The position numbers and the translations under genes were made by a program. Under the pieces are notes generated by a model. The model was not told the origin of the DNA, did no database searches, and was given only the letters and a program-made list of their open reading frames with translations. From Octopus sinensis (taxonomy: Eukaryota): 64,000 nt of DNA. Below, piece after piece: positions 14,740 through 49,884 of the stretch. Positions within the stretch are counted from its first letter, which is position 1; each line of letters opens with the position of its first letter. The stretch is taken from assembly GCF_006345805.1 (NCBI RefSeq), contig NC_043001.1:88350001-88414000 (forward strand). Reading direction: 5' to 3'.

Positions 14740-15425
14740 ATTATATAAGTAAAGTAATTTATGTCTACATTTAATTTTACGCTTGTCCAATGAATTAACT
14801 AATTTATCATGATTATTAAATATTATTTCTTTAAATTCACTAGAACATAATAAACAGGAATTACTACCTATACTATATGATTTCACCTTACAAACTATCT
14901 CCCACTTTAAATTATACTTAATTCATTTAGATTTAAGTTCCCATATATATTTACTAAGCCCAGTAGAATTCATTAGATTTATATTCTTAAAGGAATGCAT
15001 ATACTTAATTTAATTTTAGAAGTAGACCCTATATAGATTACATTTAAGTTATAATTATTCCTATTATTCTCATCAATTAAAGTAACGATACGTTTATAAA
15101 CAACATCATGTAAATTACATTTATTTTTAACCTTACAATTATTTTTATCTCTACATGTACAATCAATTAGAACGTTATCTTTATTATTATTGGAATCATT
15201 ATAAAATTTCTTTTTGTAAATATTATTCAACTTAAATTTATTAAAAGCAGAAATAATGTTACCTACATTATTAGTGGTAGAATAACCAACTCCAAAATTA
15301 TTACTAGAGAAAATTTTTTTATATTTTCGATTATCACGAATGAATTGTTCAATTATATTTAAAATCTCTTTAATAATATTAGTTTTAACTTGAGCCCCAT
15401 AAGGAACAATCAACCAAATTTTATT
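14740..15425 (-). mobile_element. Penelope-like element remnant: Cys-rich linker + GIY-YIG endonuclease
   Basis: IWLIVPYGAQVKTNI...KIFSSNN..GYSTTNN..CTCRDKNNCKVKNKC..VVYK...IYIGST, continuing after a frameshift as STGLSKYIWELK..LKWEI...CLLCSSE...CRHK. Confidence 0.85.
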
Positions 15426-15471
15426 TCTGTTATTTATATTATTATTATTATTATTATTATTACTATTATTC

Positions 15472-16600
15472 ATCATCATCATCATCATCATCATTTAGCA
15501 TCCGTTCTCCATGCTAGCATGGGTTGGACGGTTCAACTGGGGTCTGTGAAGCTGGAAGGCTTCATCAGGCCCAGTCAGATCTGGCAGTGTTTCTACGGCT
15601 GGATGCCCTTCCTAACGCAACCACTCCGTGAGTGTAGTGGGTGCTTTTACGTGCCACCTGTACAGTGTGCCAGACAGAGCTGGCAAACGGCCACGAACGG
15701 ATGGTGCTTTTACGTGTCACCGGCACGGGGGCCAGGCGAGGCTGGCAACGGACACGAACGATGGTGCTTTTACGTGCCACCAACACGGGGGCCAGACAGA
15801 GCTGGCAAACGGCCACGAAACGGATGGTGCTTTTACGTGTCACAGGCACGGGGCTAGGCGAGGTTGGCAAGGCACGAACGGATGGTGCTTTTACATGCCA
15901 CCGATACGGGGGCCAGACAGGGCTGGCAAACGGCCACGAACGGATGGTGCTTTTACGTGTCACCGCACGGGGGCCAGGCGAGGCTGGCAACGGACACGAA
16001 CGGATGGTGCTTTTACATGTCACCAACATGGGGCCAGACAGGGCTGGCAAACGGCCACAAACGGATGGTGCTTTTACATGTCACCGACATGGGGACCAGA
16101 CAGGGCTGGCAAACGGCCACGAACGGATGGTGCTTTTACGTGTCACCGGCACGGGGGCCAGACAGAGCTGGCAAACGGCCACGAACGGATGGTGCTTTTA
16201 CGTGTCACCGGCACGGGGGCCAGACAGAGCTGGCAAACGGCCACAAACGGTTGGTGCTTTTATGTGTCACCGGCACGGGGGCCAGGCCAGGCTGGCAACG
16301 AACACGAACGGATGGTGCTTTTACGTGCCACCGACACGGGGGCCAGACTGGGCTGGCAAACGGCTACGAACGGATGGTACTTTTACGTGTCACCTGCACG
16401 GGGGCCCTGATGTTGATCGACCTCAATTTGGTTTGATCTTGATTTTGACTGTTCTCACTGGTCTTGCCGGGTTTTCTCACACATAGCATACCTCCAAAGG
16501 TCTCGGTCACTGGTCATTTCCTTGGTGAGACCTAAAGTTCGAAGGTCGTGCTTCACCGCCTCGACCCAGGTTTTCCTGGGTCTACCTCTTCCACAGGTCC
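15472..16600 (-). mobile_element. 3' end of the same RTE family, inserted into a Penelope-like remnant
   Basis: Minus-strand CGRGRPRKTWVEAVKHDLRTLGLTKEMTSDRDLW, same 3' UTR, (CAT)n at 15472-15493. AT-rich PLE-like sequence lies on both sides. Confidence 0.85.
15640..16405. repeat. GC-rich ~60-62 bp tandem array (~12.5 units) inside the RTE 3' UTR
   Basis: Unit gatggtgcttttacgtgtcaccggcacgggggccagacagagctggcaaacggccacgaacg in two variants; explains the overlapping repetitive ORFs. Confidence 0.95.
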
Positions 16601-19528: not shown

Positions 19529-22475
19529 CAAATCACCAAAACAATTAAAACCATCCACACTCGCCTCAACATTTTCTGCTTAATGCCCAAGGCATCAGCC
19601 CTTCCACCAATACACAAAATGGAAGATAAGATTCCTGGAGGACTGGGTCGAGGCCCATCCAACCACATCCCTTTCTTCGTCCTCACTGAAACCATCTTAG
19701 TGACCTCCACTTGGAAGCCGAGGTGAAAGTTAAAAAATTTCAAAACCATTCGTGCTGATCGTGTTGGCAGCAGAAGAAAGGGTGGGACTGCCATTTATGT
19801 CCATGATTCATTCTCACAGAAGAAGCCATGAACATATTTTCGAATGGATACTGCGAAGCAGTCGCTGTATTCAGTCAAACCAACAACTTAACAGTAGTTG
19901 GGCTCTACAGACCACCCCAAACGCCCCTACCATGCTTCAAGGAATGCCTCAACAGCATAAAGTGTTTCATTCAGCAGTGTCAACCTGACAACATTTTAAT
20001 GATGGGAGATTTCAACCTTCCCGGGGTTGACTGGTCTACAAACAGTCTGCCGCCAGGTTCTTCTCTCTCAACCCCTGACAGGGAGGCAGTGGAATCGCTT
20101 CTTGACTTCATGGATGACTTCTTCTTGTCCCAACTGGTACTCGAACCAACGAGATGTCACAAAAACGTCTTAGACTTAATTTTCAGCAATCACACTGATA
20201 CTATCCAAAATATTGCAGTGGAGAAAACCCTACTCTCCGACCATGACATGGTTCTCTGTGATCTGAGATTTCACTGGCCAAAATGCAAAACAAATGTCAT
20301 CCCTCTTGTCATCCATTTGACACTATGGATTTCCACAATGCAAACTGGGAAGCGATCAATAATGATCTTGCACAAGTCGATTGGTCCTTCACGCACACAT
20401 ACACACCCACTAACATCAAAAAGTCCTGGCAGTCACTTGTAGACACCATCACGAACATATGTGCAAGACACACCCCATTAAGATCTGCAAACAAATCTAA
20501 GTGTCGAATCCCTAGAAATAGAAAATCTCTCATAAGGAAAATTAAAAGAATCAACAAAAAGATCAACATGCTGAAATACTGTCAACAGCAACACACCAAC
20601 CTGACTGCCATCTCGTCGCTAGAGATTAAAAACATAAACTCCAAAACAACATGATGTCTATCATCAATAGTCAGCGAAGAGCTGAAGAGGCCTGGGCCAT
20701 TGAGGAGATCAAACTCAATCCCAAAGTGTTCTTTTCATTTGCAAAAAAACACAGAGTCACTGGTTCTACTGTTGGCCCTCTGATTGATGAAAATGGTATT
20801 CTTCAAGACAATGCCAAAACCATGGGAGAAATATTGCAGAAACAATATTGCTCTGTTTTCAGCAATCCTGATATGACTGATCTGGGCTGTATCAGTGATG
20901 TTACTCCCAATACACTTTATCGGACATAACATTTGGCGCTCCTGATGTCTTAGCAGCAATAAAGGAAATGAAGCATAATTCAGCAGTAGGTCCCGATAGG
21001 TTCCCTGCTTGTGTCTTGAAGATATGTCAAAACCAACTTGCACCCCCTCTAGCCAATCTGTGGCGGAACTCATTGGATGCTGGATATATACCAGAAGACC
21101 TTCTATCCCAGTCTGTTGTCCCAGTTTTCCAAAAAAGGAAACAAATCGCTTGCCGTGAATTACCGTCCAATCTCACTCACCTCTCATATCATCAAGGTAT
21201 TTGAGAGGGTGCTGAGATCGCGTATGACTCACTTCCTTGAGAGTCATAATATGCTGAACCCCAACCAGCATGGATTCCGTAATGGGAGAGATTGCCTGAC
21301 GCAGCTACTGCATCATTTTGATGACATTTTGAGAGCCTTGGGAGAGGGTTCCAACACTGATGTCATCTACCTTGATTTCAGCAAGGCCTTTGACAGGGTT
21401 GATCATAAGATCCTTCTGAGAAAGCTGTCCAATATTGGTGTCACTGGAAAGCTGCTGCAATGGATCAAGTGCTTCCTCTCTAACAGAACCCAACATGTTG
21501 TAGTCGAAGGAGTCAAATCCAGCCCAGCCAAAGTCAGCAGTGGTGTCCCACAAGGCACTGTGTTGGCCCACTTCTCTTCATCATCTACATAAATGATATT
21601 ACTGACACCATCAAACACAACAACATCAGAACCTTCGCTGATGATTCCAAGCTCCAGAAGGTCATCAATGGCGTGGATGACCGAATAAACCTTCAGTCAG
21701 ACCTACTGGCTGTTGTCCAATGGGCGGAAAAGAATAACATGTTGCTAAATGAAGACAAATTCGAACTGATCCACTTTGGAAGGGAGGACGCTCTGAAACT
21801 CCCATACTCTCTTCCTTCTGGAGAAATTCTCATGGCATCCAACAACATCAGAGACCTGGGAGTAACAGTGGACAACAACATAAGCTGGGCTACACATATA
21901 AGCAGCAAAGTTGACATGGCCCGCAGAATGGTTCCTGGATTCTCAGAACCTTCCAGTCGAGAGATTCCCACGCTATTATCCTTCTCTTCTCCACTTTTGC
22001 CCGACCCCACCTTGAATACTGCTGTCCACTGTGGTCTTCCTACACAAAACAAAATATTATGAGAATTGAAGCTCCCCAAAGGTCAATCACAAAAAAGATA
22101 GATGGCATGTCAGACCTTGACTACTGGGGTAGACTAGAGAAGCTGAAATTGTATTCACTCCAACGACGCCGTGAACGCTACATTATCTGTATGATGTGGA
22201 AAATATTCCACCAGCACTGTCCGAATGATGTTGGCATCACCTTCAAAATGCATCCAAGGCTTGGACCACGTGCCATCCGTCCACAACAAAAATCTAAATC
22301 GCATCACATAACGACAATACGGCACAACTATTTCACCTCAATTGGACCCGCTCTCTTCAACATTACACCAGGACACGTCAAAAAAGAACTGACCACACAC
22401 ACAAAATTCAAGAAGTCTTTGGACAAATTCCTTCAAACAGTACCGGACAAACCACCCACACCCGGATATGTCTGA
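19520..22475 (+). pseudogene. LINE ORF2: apurinic-like endonuclease + reverse transcriptase, multiple 1-nt frameshifts
   Basis: APE motifs RKGGTAIYV, GLYRPP, MGDFNLP, NVLDLIF, LSDHDMV. RT motifs NYRPISLTS, QHGFR, YLDFSKAFDRVDH, GVPQGTVL, FADDSK. C-terminal RLEKLKLYSLQRRRERY. Confidence 0.93.
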
Positions 22476-38946: not shown

Positions 38947-40016
38947 ACTTAGAAAGGTTTTGGCCAGTATTGGCCCAGGCCATGTCTAACTTAATAGCAC
39001 CACCTGGTGAAGTCTTTCAGTTCAGGATTTGGGCACCAAGGCCCATTCGAGCAGAGAGTTATTGTTTGCGGAGACATATCCGGGTGTGGGTGGTTTGTCC
39101 GGTACTGTTTGAAGGAATTTGTCGAAAGACTTCTTGAATTTTGTGTGGTCAGTTTCTTTTTTGACGTGCCCTGGTGTAATGTTGAAGAGAGCAGGTCCAA
39201 TTGAGGTGAAATAGTTGTACCGTATTGTCGTTATGTGATGCGATTTAGATTTTTGTTGTGGACGGATGGCACGTGGTCCAAGCCTTGGATGCATTTTGAA
39301 GGTGATGCCAACATCATTCGGACAGTGCTGGTGGAATATTTTCCACATCATACAGATAATGTAGCGTTCACGGCATCGTTGGAGTGAATACAATTTCAGC
39401 TTTTCTAGTCTACCCCAGTAGTCAAGGTCTGACATGCCATCTTTTTTATGATTGACCTTTGGGGAGCTTCAATTCTCATAATATTTTATTTTGTGTAGGG
39501 AGACCACAGTGGACAGCAGTATTCAAGGTGGTGTCGGGCAAAAGTGGAGAAGAGAAGGATAATAGCGTGGGAATCTCTCGACTGGAAGGTTCTGAGAATC
39601 CAGGAACACATTCTGCGGGCCATGTCAACTTTGCTGTTTATATGTGTAGCCCAGCTTATGTTGTTGTCCACTGTTACTCCCAGGTCTCTGATGTTGTTGG
39701 ATGCCATGAGAATTTCTCCAGAAGGAAGAGAGTATGGGAGTTTCAGAGCGTCCTCCCTTCCAAAGTGGATCAGTTCAAATTTGTCTTCATTTAGCAACAT
39801 GTTATTCTTTTCCGCCCATTGGACAACAGCCAGTAGGTCTGGCTGAAGGTTTATTCGGTCATCCACGCCATTGATGACCTTCTGGAGCTTGGAGTCATCA
39901 GCGAAGGTTCTGATGTTACTGTGTTTGATGGTATCAGTAATATCATTTATGTAGATGATGAAGAGAAGTGGGCCCAACACAGTACCTTGTGGGACACCAC
40001 TGCTGACTTTGGCTGG
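38945..40016 (-). mobile_element. 5'-truncated copy of the same CR1/L2-type LINE (last ~1.07 kb)
   Basis: Reverse complement closely matches ~21525-22550 (LGPLLFIIYINDI...FADDSKL...RLEKLKLYSL); the 3' end abuts (TA)n. Confidence 0.93.
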
Positions 40017-40529
40017 ATGAAGCTAGCTGTATAAAGAAGTGCTGGTTGCTAAATGTGGCTGTAACTTGTGTGAAAGGGAGAACCAGAAAGACATAAAATG
40101 AAGTATTTTAGGCTGACCTCAGCACCATGAGCCTGATGAAGATGACAAAGGACTGGGCTTTCTGGCAATACAAGATTCATCAAAAGATCTTTCCTCACCA
40201 TCAAAACTGAGATCTGATAAGGCTATGTATTGTAATCTCTGCCCACATTATGGTGATTTATCCTCCTTCTCTATGTATTAACCCTGCTTCATCTTCCTGC
40301 CACCCAGCTCCTGCAGACTACCGACAGTATCATTCTTCTCTCTTGTGTCCTGCTCTAACAACTACATCATATTTACTGTTCTTGCTGCTTGCTCCCCCTT
40401 CTCTTCTGCATCCCTCTGTCTCCCCCAACTCCTCTCTATGCAGGCCTACCCATTATACCTTTGCACTCGAAGCCCTCCAAGGGCAGGAAGTGAGAGTTCT
40501 TATGGTTTGTCTCCTTTCTCTCTTCAAGT

Positions 40530-46600: not shown

Positions 46601-46819
46601 CAGATGTCTTTGAAAGCACGGTACAGCCAGTCATCATGTCAAGATCATCATAATTTTGCTCAAGTGGTGATAAGCTTGGAATATCAACATTCATGCATAC
46701 CCACCTCCATATATATCCATATATTAATATCCTCAATGTATCATATATCTGAAAAAGAAGCACATACTAAATCATAGAACAGTAATGTATTTGTAAGTAT
46801 TTAAGTCTATATCAGGTTA

Positions 46820-46992
46820 TAGAGTGACCAATGGTTTCACATCCATAAAAGGCTTAGCTCCATGAATGTCTTGTCAGACTCTAAAGCCAAAGACAAGGGA
46901 AGTGAAAAGTTACATTTGTCTTTGGCTTTAGAGTGACCAATGGTTTTGTATCCACAAAGGGTTTAGCCATGTGAATGTCTCATCAGATTCTA
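46820..46992 (-). ncRNA. Two tandem type-I hammerhead-ribozyme-like motifs (109-nt spacing), each with core substitutions
   Basis: Minus strand: uagagu-CUGAcaA-g-acauucau..auggaugu-GAAAC-cauug-GUC-acucua (46820-46883) and uagaau-CUGAUGA-g-acauucac..guggauac-aAAAC-cauug-GUC-acucua (46929-46992). Confidence 0.65.
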
Positions 46993-49884
46993 AAGTCAAA
47001 GACAAGGGAAGCAAAGAGTTACATATGTCTTCAGCTTTCAGGTGTGAAACCATATATATATATATATATATATATACATACATATGTAGTATGTATGTAC
47101 ATACAATGGACTTCTTACAGTTTTCTACCAAATTAACTCAAAAGACCTTGGTTATCCAGGGGCAATGGTCAAAAACATTTATCCATGGTGCTGTGCAATG
47201 CGACTAAACTCAAAACTATGTGGTTGCCATTCATGTACCTGCATGTGTGTGTGTTTGTATACATTCCCATAGTTATTTCTATATATGGATGTAATGACAC
47301 ATACATGCATACATATGTAATGCCACATACATACATTTTAGCTAATGAGAGAATCTCTAATTTGAATTGGTAGAAGTCTCAACCAAATTTCCTTCACATT
47401 ACAGCCTACTGTCTTGAAATGGGATTGATGTATTGGAGAATGCAGTCAGATTTGCAGTGCCAGAGAGAAAGCCAAGATGGTTGTGGCTTGTTAGCTTTTG
47501 ATTATAGGTTTGCCCAGTTGGGGTTGACTGAGGATAAATAAGCACAGCTTGGTGACCTGTATTCACATTGATCCACCGTGATGCATACATATACAACTCA
47601 TGCTTATAGAATAACGCCTACATCTGTACTGAGATCCATATACAGCAACAAATGCATATACACATGCATCATACTTACAATGTGACACTTCTCAGTGAAA
47701 TATATACGCATGCAAACACACACTCACTCAACCCTGTTGCTCTACCCTGATTATAAGTTCATATTTATACCAATAATTATTAGTGCAATTTGGCTATGTT
47801 AGTGAATGTCTAAATGACAATCTGGAAAATTTACAACTTTGAAGCAAAGAAAGACACTAGCTGACTGAGACTTTACAATTGCAAGAGTAACTTCTCATTG
47901 TGGTTATCCAAATTCTAACAATGGAGCTTTGTTTCTTTGTTAGAAGCCAACTCCTTTCTAGGATGAATTCTAATAAATATAAAAATGTAAAGCATACTCA
48001 CATACACAGCGATATGCACACATTCACATGGTGTTGCTGGTACATATATGTATTTATATATAAATACTAGCATCATCATGTGCATACATGTGTATCATTG
48101 TGTATGTGTAACATATACAAGTATACATATCTACGTACTCAATGACACTGCACTCATACCTTGAGTGTGACTTTTGCATATATAAACTAGATGGTGTATC
48201 CACACACTTATTACACTCACTAAAATGTACATGCACACACTAATAGTTGTACATATTCAGGCATACACATGTATTAGGAAGGGCATCCAGCTGTGACTAC
48301 CCTGCCAAATCTGACATGGAACATTATGCAACTTTGTGGCTCATAGATCCTGTTAAACCATCCAGCCCATGCAAGCAATAACATTGATGATAATGATGAT
48401 ACATGTACACATGCTCTAAAAAATACACACATACACAAACACATGCATATACACTGGCTACAACAGTGAAAAGTCTCTGTACCACCACCATCACCTACCA
48501 CCTACATCATGTCCCCCACAATTGTAAACTGATCTCTTCTCCAGTGAAAAAAAAACAAAAAAAAACAGCTTCATATATTGTCTTCTGATTAAACTTATTC
48601 TTGGCTAACATTGTTTCAGTTGATGTATTATTGGTTAAAAAAGTAACATTCAAGTTGTAGTACTTTGATGAGATTTTTCTATCCAGCAACCCTAGTTTGT
48701 AACTGTGAGCTTATAATTATTAAAATATTTGACAATTGATAGAAGAACTGAGAAAGCATATACACACATACACACAGGTATGTATATATGTATATTTGTG
48801 TGTGTGTGTGCATATACAATTGTATGTATGTGTATATGTGTGAGTGTTAGTGCATGTGTATTTGTAAGTTTGTGTGTATGTCTATAAATGCTTACAATTC
48901 ATGCTGAGTTATGGCTACAGTTGGTGATGTTAGCATTTGTGATTGGTCTTCAACTGGTGATATTACTGATGTTTCTTGCCAACAAACCATTTGTTAAAGG
49001 TTGGTAACAGGATGAGCATCCAACCATAGACATTCTGCTTCAATTTTCTGCTGTCTAAGTAATTCTAGCATGGAAAATAGACAAATAAAATGCATGAAAA
49101 TCATCATTCAGCATCCACTTTTCCCTGCTTGCATGGATCAGCTGGAATTTGTTGAGCCAAATGGAGTATCTACACCCAGATACCCTTCCTGTTGCCAGCC
49201 CTCCCTTATTTCCAAGTAAGGTAATATTTCCTATGTCCAGACATGCTTTCCATGGAAGACTGAAAACAAGCAACATCACTTGAATGATGGTGCTGCTTGT
49301 TTTCAACTATTATGTGATACCAAGACAGGGAACACACAAATACAAATGCACACACATACATATACATATGCACATATATATTTATGTATACACATACATA
49401 TAACTACACACACACACACACACACACATAAATTTATATATATATATGCATGCACACATATTGACTTGCTCACCTAGCCAGCAAGGTGACAGTATTTGAA
49501 AGCTAAAATGATATGAATCACATTGTGACCTGCTATGTATAACAATATATGATAATCTGGTTGATACCATGATATATATACATATATGCTACTAACGTTG
49601 ATTATGAAACAGCTGTCAGCTAACAGAATAACCATGTATCCTCTCACTTCACGTCTTTTATCTGATCAATATTTATATACACACATTCACAATTGGCTTC
49701 TTTCAGTTGCCATCTATGAAATCCACTCACAAGGTTTTGGTTGGCTTTGGAACTAAATGGTTTGGGGTTTGTCCCACTTCATGAATGTTGTCAGCTAGCA
49801 TTCTGTACTATACCCTCAAGTCAACTAATGCCTTGTGAGGGAAATTGGTAGACAAAAACTGAATTATTGTTGTTGGTGGACAGA

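What the first reader, a model, noticed from the sequence alone, without database searches (positions are those of the whole stretch)
46815..47040. Tandem 109-bp repeat in which each unit is a type-I hammerhead motif: retrozyme-like relic
Seen (minus strand): stem I uagagu/acucua, CUGAUGA box, ~8-bp extended stem II, GAAAC, near-palindromic ACCAUUGGU stem III and GUC site, twice at 109-nt spacing. One unit has a damaged CUGAUGA and the other a damaged GAAA, so the consensus is a complete ribozyme. The linker also forms a perfect 19-bp alternative stem (actctaaagccaaagacaa / ttgtctttggctttagagt) that competes with stem I. Established: tandem hammerhead repeats define non-LTR retrozymes (small circular RNAs) and PLE pseudo-LTRs. 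Inference: a very small, highly base-paired retrozyme-like monomer with a built-in conformational switch; no linked ORF is visible.
Basis: partly seen in the sequence, partly recalled or inferred. Interest (0 to 1): 0.75.

Follow-up and report, generated by a model that had tools for sequence, protein, structure and literature searches.

The report
Decayed Penelope transposon tip, locally duplicated
This is an ordinary, worn-out end piece of a common jumping gene that carries a self-cutting RNA motif; 109 letters of it were duplicated once at this spot, and both copies have mutations that likely stop them cutting.

Summary
The 109-bp tandem and both type-I hammerhead motifs are real. They are not a retrozyme family. 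The motif is the 3'-end hammerhead of a dispersed, decayed Penelope-like element (PLE): 19 of 24 loci found by the upstream coding DNA carry it downstream. The ORF resembles Hydra-clade PLEs. Copies are cut at many 5' points, and 20 of 56 loci have an inverted head-to-head partner. The window is such a head-to-head stub. Its '19-bp switch' is simply the inverted partner arm. The tandem junction occurs once in 2.7 Gb, even with 3 mismatches allowed, against 187 exact normal junctions. One unit has G8A, the other G12A, both at CpG sites that decayed in opposite directions, so the duplication is old and both ribozymes are likely dead. A composite fold is 17.6 kcal/mol uphill. The scan noted retrozyme-type families elsewhere in this genome but no look-alike of this one. 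Ordinary; low interest.

The parts
46733..46819 (-). 3' tail of the PLE family, downstream of the hammerhead, ending in TA-rich sequence
   Evidence: aligns without gaps to the family majority sequence; BLAST to copy L014
46820..46883 (-). hammerhead unit B (downstream in RNA sense): G8A at 46872, C11.1U at 46839, GAAA intact, GUC site 46826-46828
   Evidence: 7 differences from the family majority over 64 nt
46878..46896 (-). 5'-truncated element arm (13 nt upstream plus the stem I 5' strand); one side of the 19-bp stem
46899..46934 (+). inverted head-to-head partner copy of the same element (about 30 nt upstream of its hammerhead, up to the stem I 5' strand); gives the other side of the 19-bp stem
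   Evidence: the plus strand aligns to the family sense sequence
46929..46934 (.). 6-nt microhomology at the duplication junction, shared by the partner's stem I 5' strand and the complement of the stem I 3' strand; it starts right after the GUC site
   Evidence: sequence; junction found once in G000
46929..46992 (-). hammerhead unit A (upstream in RNA sense): CUGAUGA intact, G12A at 46947, stem I mismatch at 46988
   Evidence: 10 differences from the family majority over 64 nt
46987..47005 (-). duplicate of the 5'-truncated arm; 2 mismatches to the anti-arm
47008..47053 (+). second copy of the inverted partner, followed by a short remnant of its hammerhead 3' half (47041-47053); most of that hammerhead is missing
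   Evidence: alignment of 47008-47037; the remnant was read by eye, not tested
47052..47085 (.). (TA)n microsatellite flank, likely the insertion target
   Evidence: TRF; (TA)n targeting is described for Hydra PLEs (PMC8557442)

Best explanation
The locus is a 5'-truncated, head-to-head stub of a dispersed hammerhead-bearing repeat whose long copies run into an RT plus endonuclease ORF, likely a Hydra-clade Penelope-like element, and its 109-bp tandem is a one-off local duplication of two likely inactive ribozymes. Step 1 (inferred from PLE biology): the element's RT/GIY-YIG protein inserted two short cDNAs back to back into a (TA)n tract, leaving a palindrome about 200 bp per arm. Step 2 (junction shown, mechanism inferred): soon afterwards, copying slipped at a 6-nt microhomology that exists only because stem I is self-complementary. 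This duplicated the hammerhead plus the inversion centre, and the opposite arm later lost most of its hammerhead. Step 3 (shown): CpG decay hit G8 in one unit and G12 in the other. In the parent element the hammerhead likely cleaved precursor RNA as a dimer through its near-palindromic stem III (inferred from PMC4209133). At this locus it most likely does nothing.
For: Dispersed family: 56 matches, 40 of 567 candidates scored; 94 exact copies of a 23-nt 3'-core motif and 0 in the control. ORF link: 19 of 24 loci found by coding DNA carry the hammerhead downstream on the same strand (L044 and L045 look like duplicates). L014 runs from a YRDD-containing frame to the hammerhead. An RT fragment of hammerhead-bearing copy L047 finds a 717-aa intact ORF, L082, at 48%. 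The endonuclease fragment of L052 is 40% identical to L082 (E 5e-23). The L082 model (pLDDT 90) hits telomerase RT first (E 2e-9). RWK, DK(T), CxCx5C, CxxC and CxH positions are >=95% conserved in 59 homologues and match the Hydra diagnostics. Arrangement: 35 solo, 20 with a head-to-head partner, 2 with same-strand neighbours, of 56 loci, one locus counted twice. The 5' ends of 66 copies spread from -7 to 1416 nt upstream. The junction is unique (1 match with <=3 mismatches; 187 exact normal continuations). Five TG/CA opposite pairs separate the units and only 3 of 77 changes are shared.
Against: No Pfam RT hit for any fragment or for L082; GIY-YIG in only 1 of 59 homologues at E 0.0057. No intact ORF of the window's own subfamily was found, so the fold and most Hydra motifs come from the relative L082. 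No phylogeny against reference Hydra proteins was run. Slippage cannot be told from a template jump by RT from one locus. No Rfam hammerhead match.
Confidence: 0.86

Rival explanations
1. A one-off 'retrozyme birth' event: a transcript of a head-to-head PLE stub was cut by the hammerhead and closed into a 109-nt circle (or RT jumped at the cut end), and the PLE RT copied it more than once before insertion.
For: The junction microhomology begins right after the GUC site. As a circle the 109-mer folds with a 19-bp stem I (-33.2 kcal/mol). Opposite CpG decay shows the two units split while their CpGs were intact, so near insertion time. PMC4209133 proposes circles as templates for more-than-unit RT, and bioRxiv 10.64898/2026.07.22.740005 proposes that retrozymes arise from PLE termini.
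Against: The microhomology follows automatically from stem I complementarity. No cleavage chemistry would create the needed 5' end on the antisense arm. The junction is seen once in the genome. Both flanks match a normal head-to-head insertion, and there are only two units.
Confidence: 0.08
2. A 109-nt non-LTR retrozyme family with a conformational switch.
For: Tandem type-I hammerheads at fixed spacing, low GC and strong self-pairing (z -5.24 for one unit). Retrozyme units as short as 51 bp are reported. Scan notes report retrozyme-type families in this genome (untested here).
Against: One locus only. Family copies extend into the PLE ORF. Neither unit has an intact core, so it fails the 'two complete HHRs' rule. 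The 19-bp stem is the inverted partner arm, a feature of 20 of 56 loci.
Confidence: 0.03
3. The damaged units complement each other in cis: the CUGAUGA of unit A and the GAAA/GUC of unit B form one intact hammerhead, held open by the 19-bp hairpin.
For: The composite can be drawn with all core nucleotides and 15 of 17 stem pairs.
Against: It lies 17.6 kcal/mol above the ensemble. The lesions are ordinary CpG changes, seen at 20-38% of CpG positions in family copies.
Confidence: 0.03

Closest known systems
Hammerheads in pseudo-LTRs of metazoan Penelope-like elements (Cervera and De la Pena 2014, PMC4209133; parts 1-2 of 4 read)
   Same: Type-I motif at the element end, long helix II, small near-palindromic helix III, G10.1-C11.1 pair, mostly solo truncated copies, pairs on opposite strands 100-700 bp apart, several sequence families per genome.
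   Different: Helix I here is 6 bp and helix II has an apical extension. The bulge lies after 10.1 in this family rather than between 9 and 10.1. No full element with two direct pLTRs was looked for or found.
Hydra-clade C-terminal EN+ PLEs (Craig et al. 2021, PMC8557442; section 11 and passages read)
   Same: Single RT plus GIY-YIG ORF, RWK, DKT, CxCx5C linker, CxxC and CxH around E and N, hammerhead present, (TA)n targets, inverted 5'-truncated partner copies; the clade is reported from molluscs.
   Different: This family has 100-144 codons of low-complexity sequence between the GIY-like and YIG-like motifs (5 copies) against 18 in L082. All copies examined are frameshifted or have stops. 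Supplements listing Hydra families were not seen, so the family may already be catalogued.
Metazoan non-LTR retrozymes (PMC7229834, part 2 of 6 read; bioRxiv 10.64898/2026.07.22.740005, parts 1-3 of 5 read)
   Same: Head-to-tail units each with a type-I hammerhead, no ORF at the locus, low GC, strongly self-paired monomer, PLE-terminal origin.
   Different: Single locus, two units, both cores damaged, no dispersed family of the unit, unit built partly from antisense sequence of an inversion junction, no evidence of circles.

Membership tests
Type-I hammerhead (family level) | CUGANGA, GAAA and NUH core | tested here: met
   Family majority is intact. 26 of 80 copies have an intact core, a set enriched; 2 of 15 in the ORF-found set. 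Sister families keep the core with a GUA site.
Type-I hammerhead (family level) | Three helices kept by compensatory change | tested here: met
   32 hand-picked rows, structure named by me: 91.2% of 533 cells paired against 29-38% when slid; 6 of 17 pairs change on both sides (3 in stem I, 3 in stem II, none in stem III). The pair count itself is not above shuffles (417/500); cells and covariation score are (0/500).
Type-I hammerhead (window units) | Intact catalytic G8 and G12 | tested here: not met
   G8A in unit B, G12A in unit A.
Type-I hammerhead | Rfam hammerhead model match | tested here: not met
   No hammerhead family at E<=10. RF00163 finds 7 other places in G000, 74 candidates scored.
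Type-I hammerhead | Self-cleavage | not testable with these tools
   needs in vitro assay
Non-LTR retrozyme | [quoted passage not shown] | tested here: not met
   neither unit is complete; criterion
Non-LTR retrozyme | The unit forms a dispersed multi-locus family independent of an ORF | tested here: not met
   junction found once; 19 of 24 long copies are tied to the ORF
Non-LTR retrozyme | Expressed linear and circular monomer RNA | not testable with these tools
   only assembled contigs of guessed RNA runs were available
Penelope-like element | Telomerase-like RT followed by a GIY-YIG endonuclease | tested here: met
   Shown for relative L082 (fold hits TERT first; Y587, Y605-G607, R616, E675, N691 conserved). 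Family fragments align to it. Pfam support is weak.
Penelope-like element | 5' truncation and inverted partner copies | tested here: met
Penelope-like element | Full element flanked by two direct pLTRs | not tested
   no full-length copy of this subfamily was recovered
Hydra clade | RWK, DKT, CxCx5C, CxxC, CxH motifs; (TA)n targets | tested here: met
   All are in L082. CxxC and CxH are seen in family fragment L052. The window has a TA flank.
Hydra clade | Phylogenetic placement with reference Hydra RTs | not tested
   no named reference proteins were at hand

The most novel reading that the evidence does not exclude
A fossil of a failed retrozyme birth. A head-to-head PLE stub yielded a 109-nt hammerhead circle whose 19-bp stem I comes from the inverted partner arm, and the circle was copied twice round and inserted. 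The breakpoint lies within 6 nt of the cleavage site. Inversion junctions would then be a route from PLE ends to rod-like retrozyme monomers.
Probability: 0.08. Interest if true: 0.5.

Novelty: new member of a known kind. Interest (0 to 1): 0.15.

Why it matters
It matters little as it stands: one dead stub among hundreds or more of a decayed PLE family. It is a useful caution that tandem hammerheads with a 'switch' hairpin can arise from a head-to-head PLE insertion plus one slip at the stem I microhomology. The family adds a likely Hydra-clade, hammerhead-bearing PLE with several covarying subfamilies. If the circle route were shown, it would give a concrete first step for the open question of how retrozymes arise from PLE ends.

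Tried and rejected
Rfam scans of 6 kb and 266 bp: no hammerhead, only sub-threshold miRNA/snoRNA hairpin hits. Pfam on family fragments and on L082: nothing informative. Protein search with the short endonuclease fragment: no hit among 76 candidates. PDB sequence searches: no real hit. The ESM Atlas gave no result. My first clade guess, Neptune (from memory), was dropped for Hydra after reading. Expression: no RNA holder listed. In one search, contigs of a guessed-RNA run (46767-46954) and of an unlabelled run (46822-46958) match the window with 0 differences. They pass the tandem junction by under 31 letters, so they are weak support only, and say nothing on strand, level or circles. Whether the locus lies in an intron stays open (one search gave no result). 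Assembly artefact rejected because the units differ at 20 of 109 sites. Core inversion between the stem I arms rejected because unit A is not followed by the tail. Composite cis ribozyme rejected on energy. Literature: 'hammerhead ribozyme'+'octopus' and 'Penelope-like'+'Hydra'+'cephalopod'+'hammerhead' showed no paper on this family; two searches gave the comparison papers. No supplements were read.

Full report
Observation. The window holds 2.1 copies of a 109-bp unit at 46812-47038. On the minus strand each unit has the order of a type-I hammerhead. Unit A (46929-46992) has an intact CUGAUGA but G12A and a stem I mismatch. Unit B (46820-46883) has an intact GAAA but G8A and C11.1U. The perfect 19-bp stem is real and dominates the predicted fold. 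Rfam does not recognise either unit and neither folds better than shuffles on its own, so I tested the hammerhead reading on the family.

A dispersed family. A DNA search of the 2.7-Gb host genome G000 gave 56 matches from 40 of 567 candidates scored. Apart from the window itself they cover mostly the roughly 85 nt around the hammerhead, never two units. A 23-nt 3'-core motif has 94 exact copies and 0 in the reversed control. Among 80 distinct near-full copies (window excluded; 8 lower-scoring ones set aside as sister or deleted copies) the majority has a complete core with CUGACGA, G10.1-C11.1, GAAA, ACCAUUGGU and GUC. Both G8 and G12 sit in CpG dinucleotides. 26 of 80 copies keep an intact core, but only 2 of 15 in the set found through coding DNA. 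In that unbiased set non-CpG core sites differ at 9 of 135, non-core sites at 115 of 735, and CpG sites at 20-25%. On 32 hand-picked rows from this and sister families, the structure I named pairs in 91.2% of cells against 29-38% when slid, with two-sided changes in 3 stem I and 3 stem II pairs. The number of such pairs is not above the shuffle control, while the cell count and covariation score are. Stem III can pair with itself in trans (-8.9 kcal/mol), as described for dimer-acting PLE hammerheads (PMC4209133).

The parent is likely a Hydra-clade PLE. Long copies continue upstream into broken reading frames with a YRDD motif and GIY-YIG-like motifs. Of 24 loci found by that coding DNA, 19 carry the hammerhead downstream on the same strand (two rows look like duplicates, and one is the same copy as L007). 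An RT fragment of copy L047 retrieves an intact 717-aa relative, L082, at 48%. The endonuclease fragment of L052 aligns to it at 40%, and the RT fragment of a sister subfamily at 55%. L082 has 834 homologues among 7994 scored. Its model (pLDDT 90) matches telomerase RT first. Pfam support is nearly absent. RWK, DK(T), CxCx5C, CxxC and CxH positions are conserved, which are the diagnostics given for the Hydra clade together with hammerheads and (TA)n targets (PMC8557442 section 11). The clade call is by motif on a relative; no tree was run. An earlier scan note calls the host an octopus; I did not test this.

What happened at this locus. The 5' ends of 66 copies spread from -7 to 1416 nt upstream of the hammerhead, 51 of them within 150 nt. 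Of 56 distinct loci, 35 are solo, 20 include a head-to-head partner and 2 include same-strand neighbours (one locus counted in both). Inverted 5'-truncated partners are a described PLE feature. The window fits this. The minus strand matches the family from 13 nt upstream of the hammerhead through the tail to 46733. The plus strand at 46899-46934 and 47008-47037 matches the family sense sequence just upstream of the hammerhead. The 19-bp stem is therefore arm against inverted arm. The partner's stem I 5' strand and the complement of the stem I 3' strand are the same 6 letters, and the duplication joins exactly there (46929-46934). That junction occurs once in the genome, exactly and with up to 3 mismatches, against 187 exact copies of the normal continuation. 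Both units carry the same inversion centre, so the duplication followed or accompanied the inversion. They share only 3 of 77 changes from the majority, and five dinucleotides read TG in one unit and CA in the other. So they split while CpGs were intact, about when the family was active. Slippage in a fresh palindrome is my preferred mechanism (inferred); a jump by RT or a 109-nt circle cannot be excluded from one locus.

Function today. G8 and G12 are the catalytic guanines (established knowledge, recalled). In a double hammerhead both boxes come from one unit, so the lesions do not complement that way. A cis composite using unit A's CUGAUGA and unit B's GAAA can be drawn but is 17.6 kcal/mol uphill; the single-unit folds are 14.9 and 18.1 uphill. 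In a circle the 19-bp helix would be stem I itself, so it is not a switch.

Comparison and verdict. The family works like the known PLE terminal hammerheads. The locus fails the retrozyme tests of two complete hammerheads and of a multi-locus unit. It does resemble the proposed first step from PLE ends to retrozymes, but only as a dead single event. The scan has noted retrozyme-type families elsewhere in this genome (leads only) and no look-alike of this stretch. Paper searches showed no description of this family; supplements were not seen. Verdict: new member of a known kind, interest 0.15.

Noticed in passing
L014, L033, L039, L043, L047 (endonuclease region): This PLE family has 100-144 codons of Asn/Ser/Thr-rich sequence between the GIY-like (YEAVV) and YIG-like motifs, against 18 in L082.
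   Followed up: partly
L082:2021-2086, L083:1792-1857, L084:2163-2228 (minus): A younger relative with long open ORFs has, after its stop codon, a candidate hammerhead variant with CCGAAGA in place of CUGANGA and a near-palindromic stem III, in all 3 copies seen; not tested.
   Followed up: no
L087 and L121-L135: A sister PLE family (48 matches, 1532 candidates) with the same hammerhead layout, compensatory stem I changes, a GUA site and head-to-head pairs.
   Followed up: partly
window 14979-15494 (-): Another PLE fragment of similar type (CxCx5C linker and GIY-YIG start), read by eye.
   Followed up: no
window 19807-22475 (+) and 39022-40022 (-): Frameshifted LINE-type endonuclease/RT pieces, two related copies; family recalled as CR1-like, not tested.
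   Followed up: no
window 15640-16406: 62-bp tandem array (12.5 copies); its unit resembles part of a dispersed repeat seen in several fetched loci.
   Followed up: no
L110/L111 (G000:C3:64547251-64548080): A head-to-head hammerhead pair of this family duplicated as an exact inverted block 529 bp apart.
   Followed up: no
L003 and L106: Other local same-strand duplications of this family's 3' end (76-bp steps in L003, a 250-bp step in L106), with junctions unlike the window's.
   Followed up: partly
L057:1-1900 and L088:4660-5979: Unrelated retroelement ORFs next to family copies: an LTR-type pol-like frame upstream of L014 and an RTE-like RT frame, named from memory.
   Followed up: no
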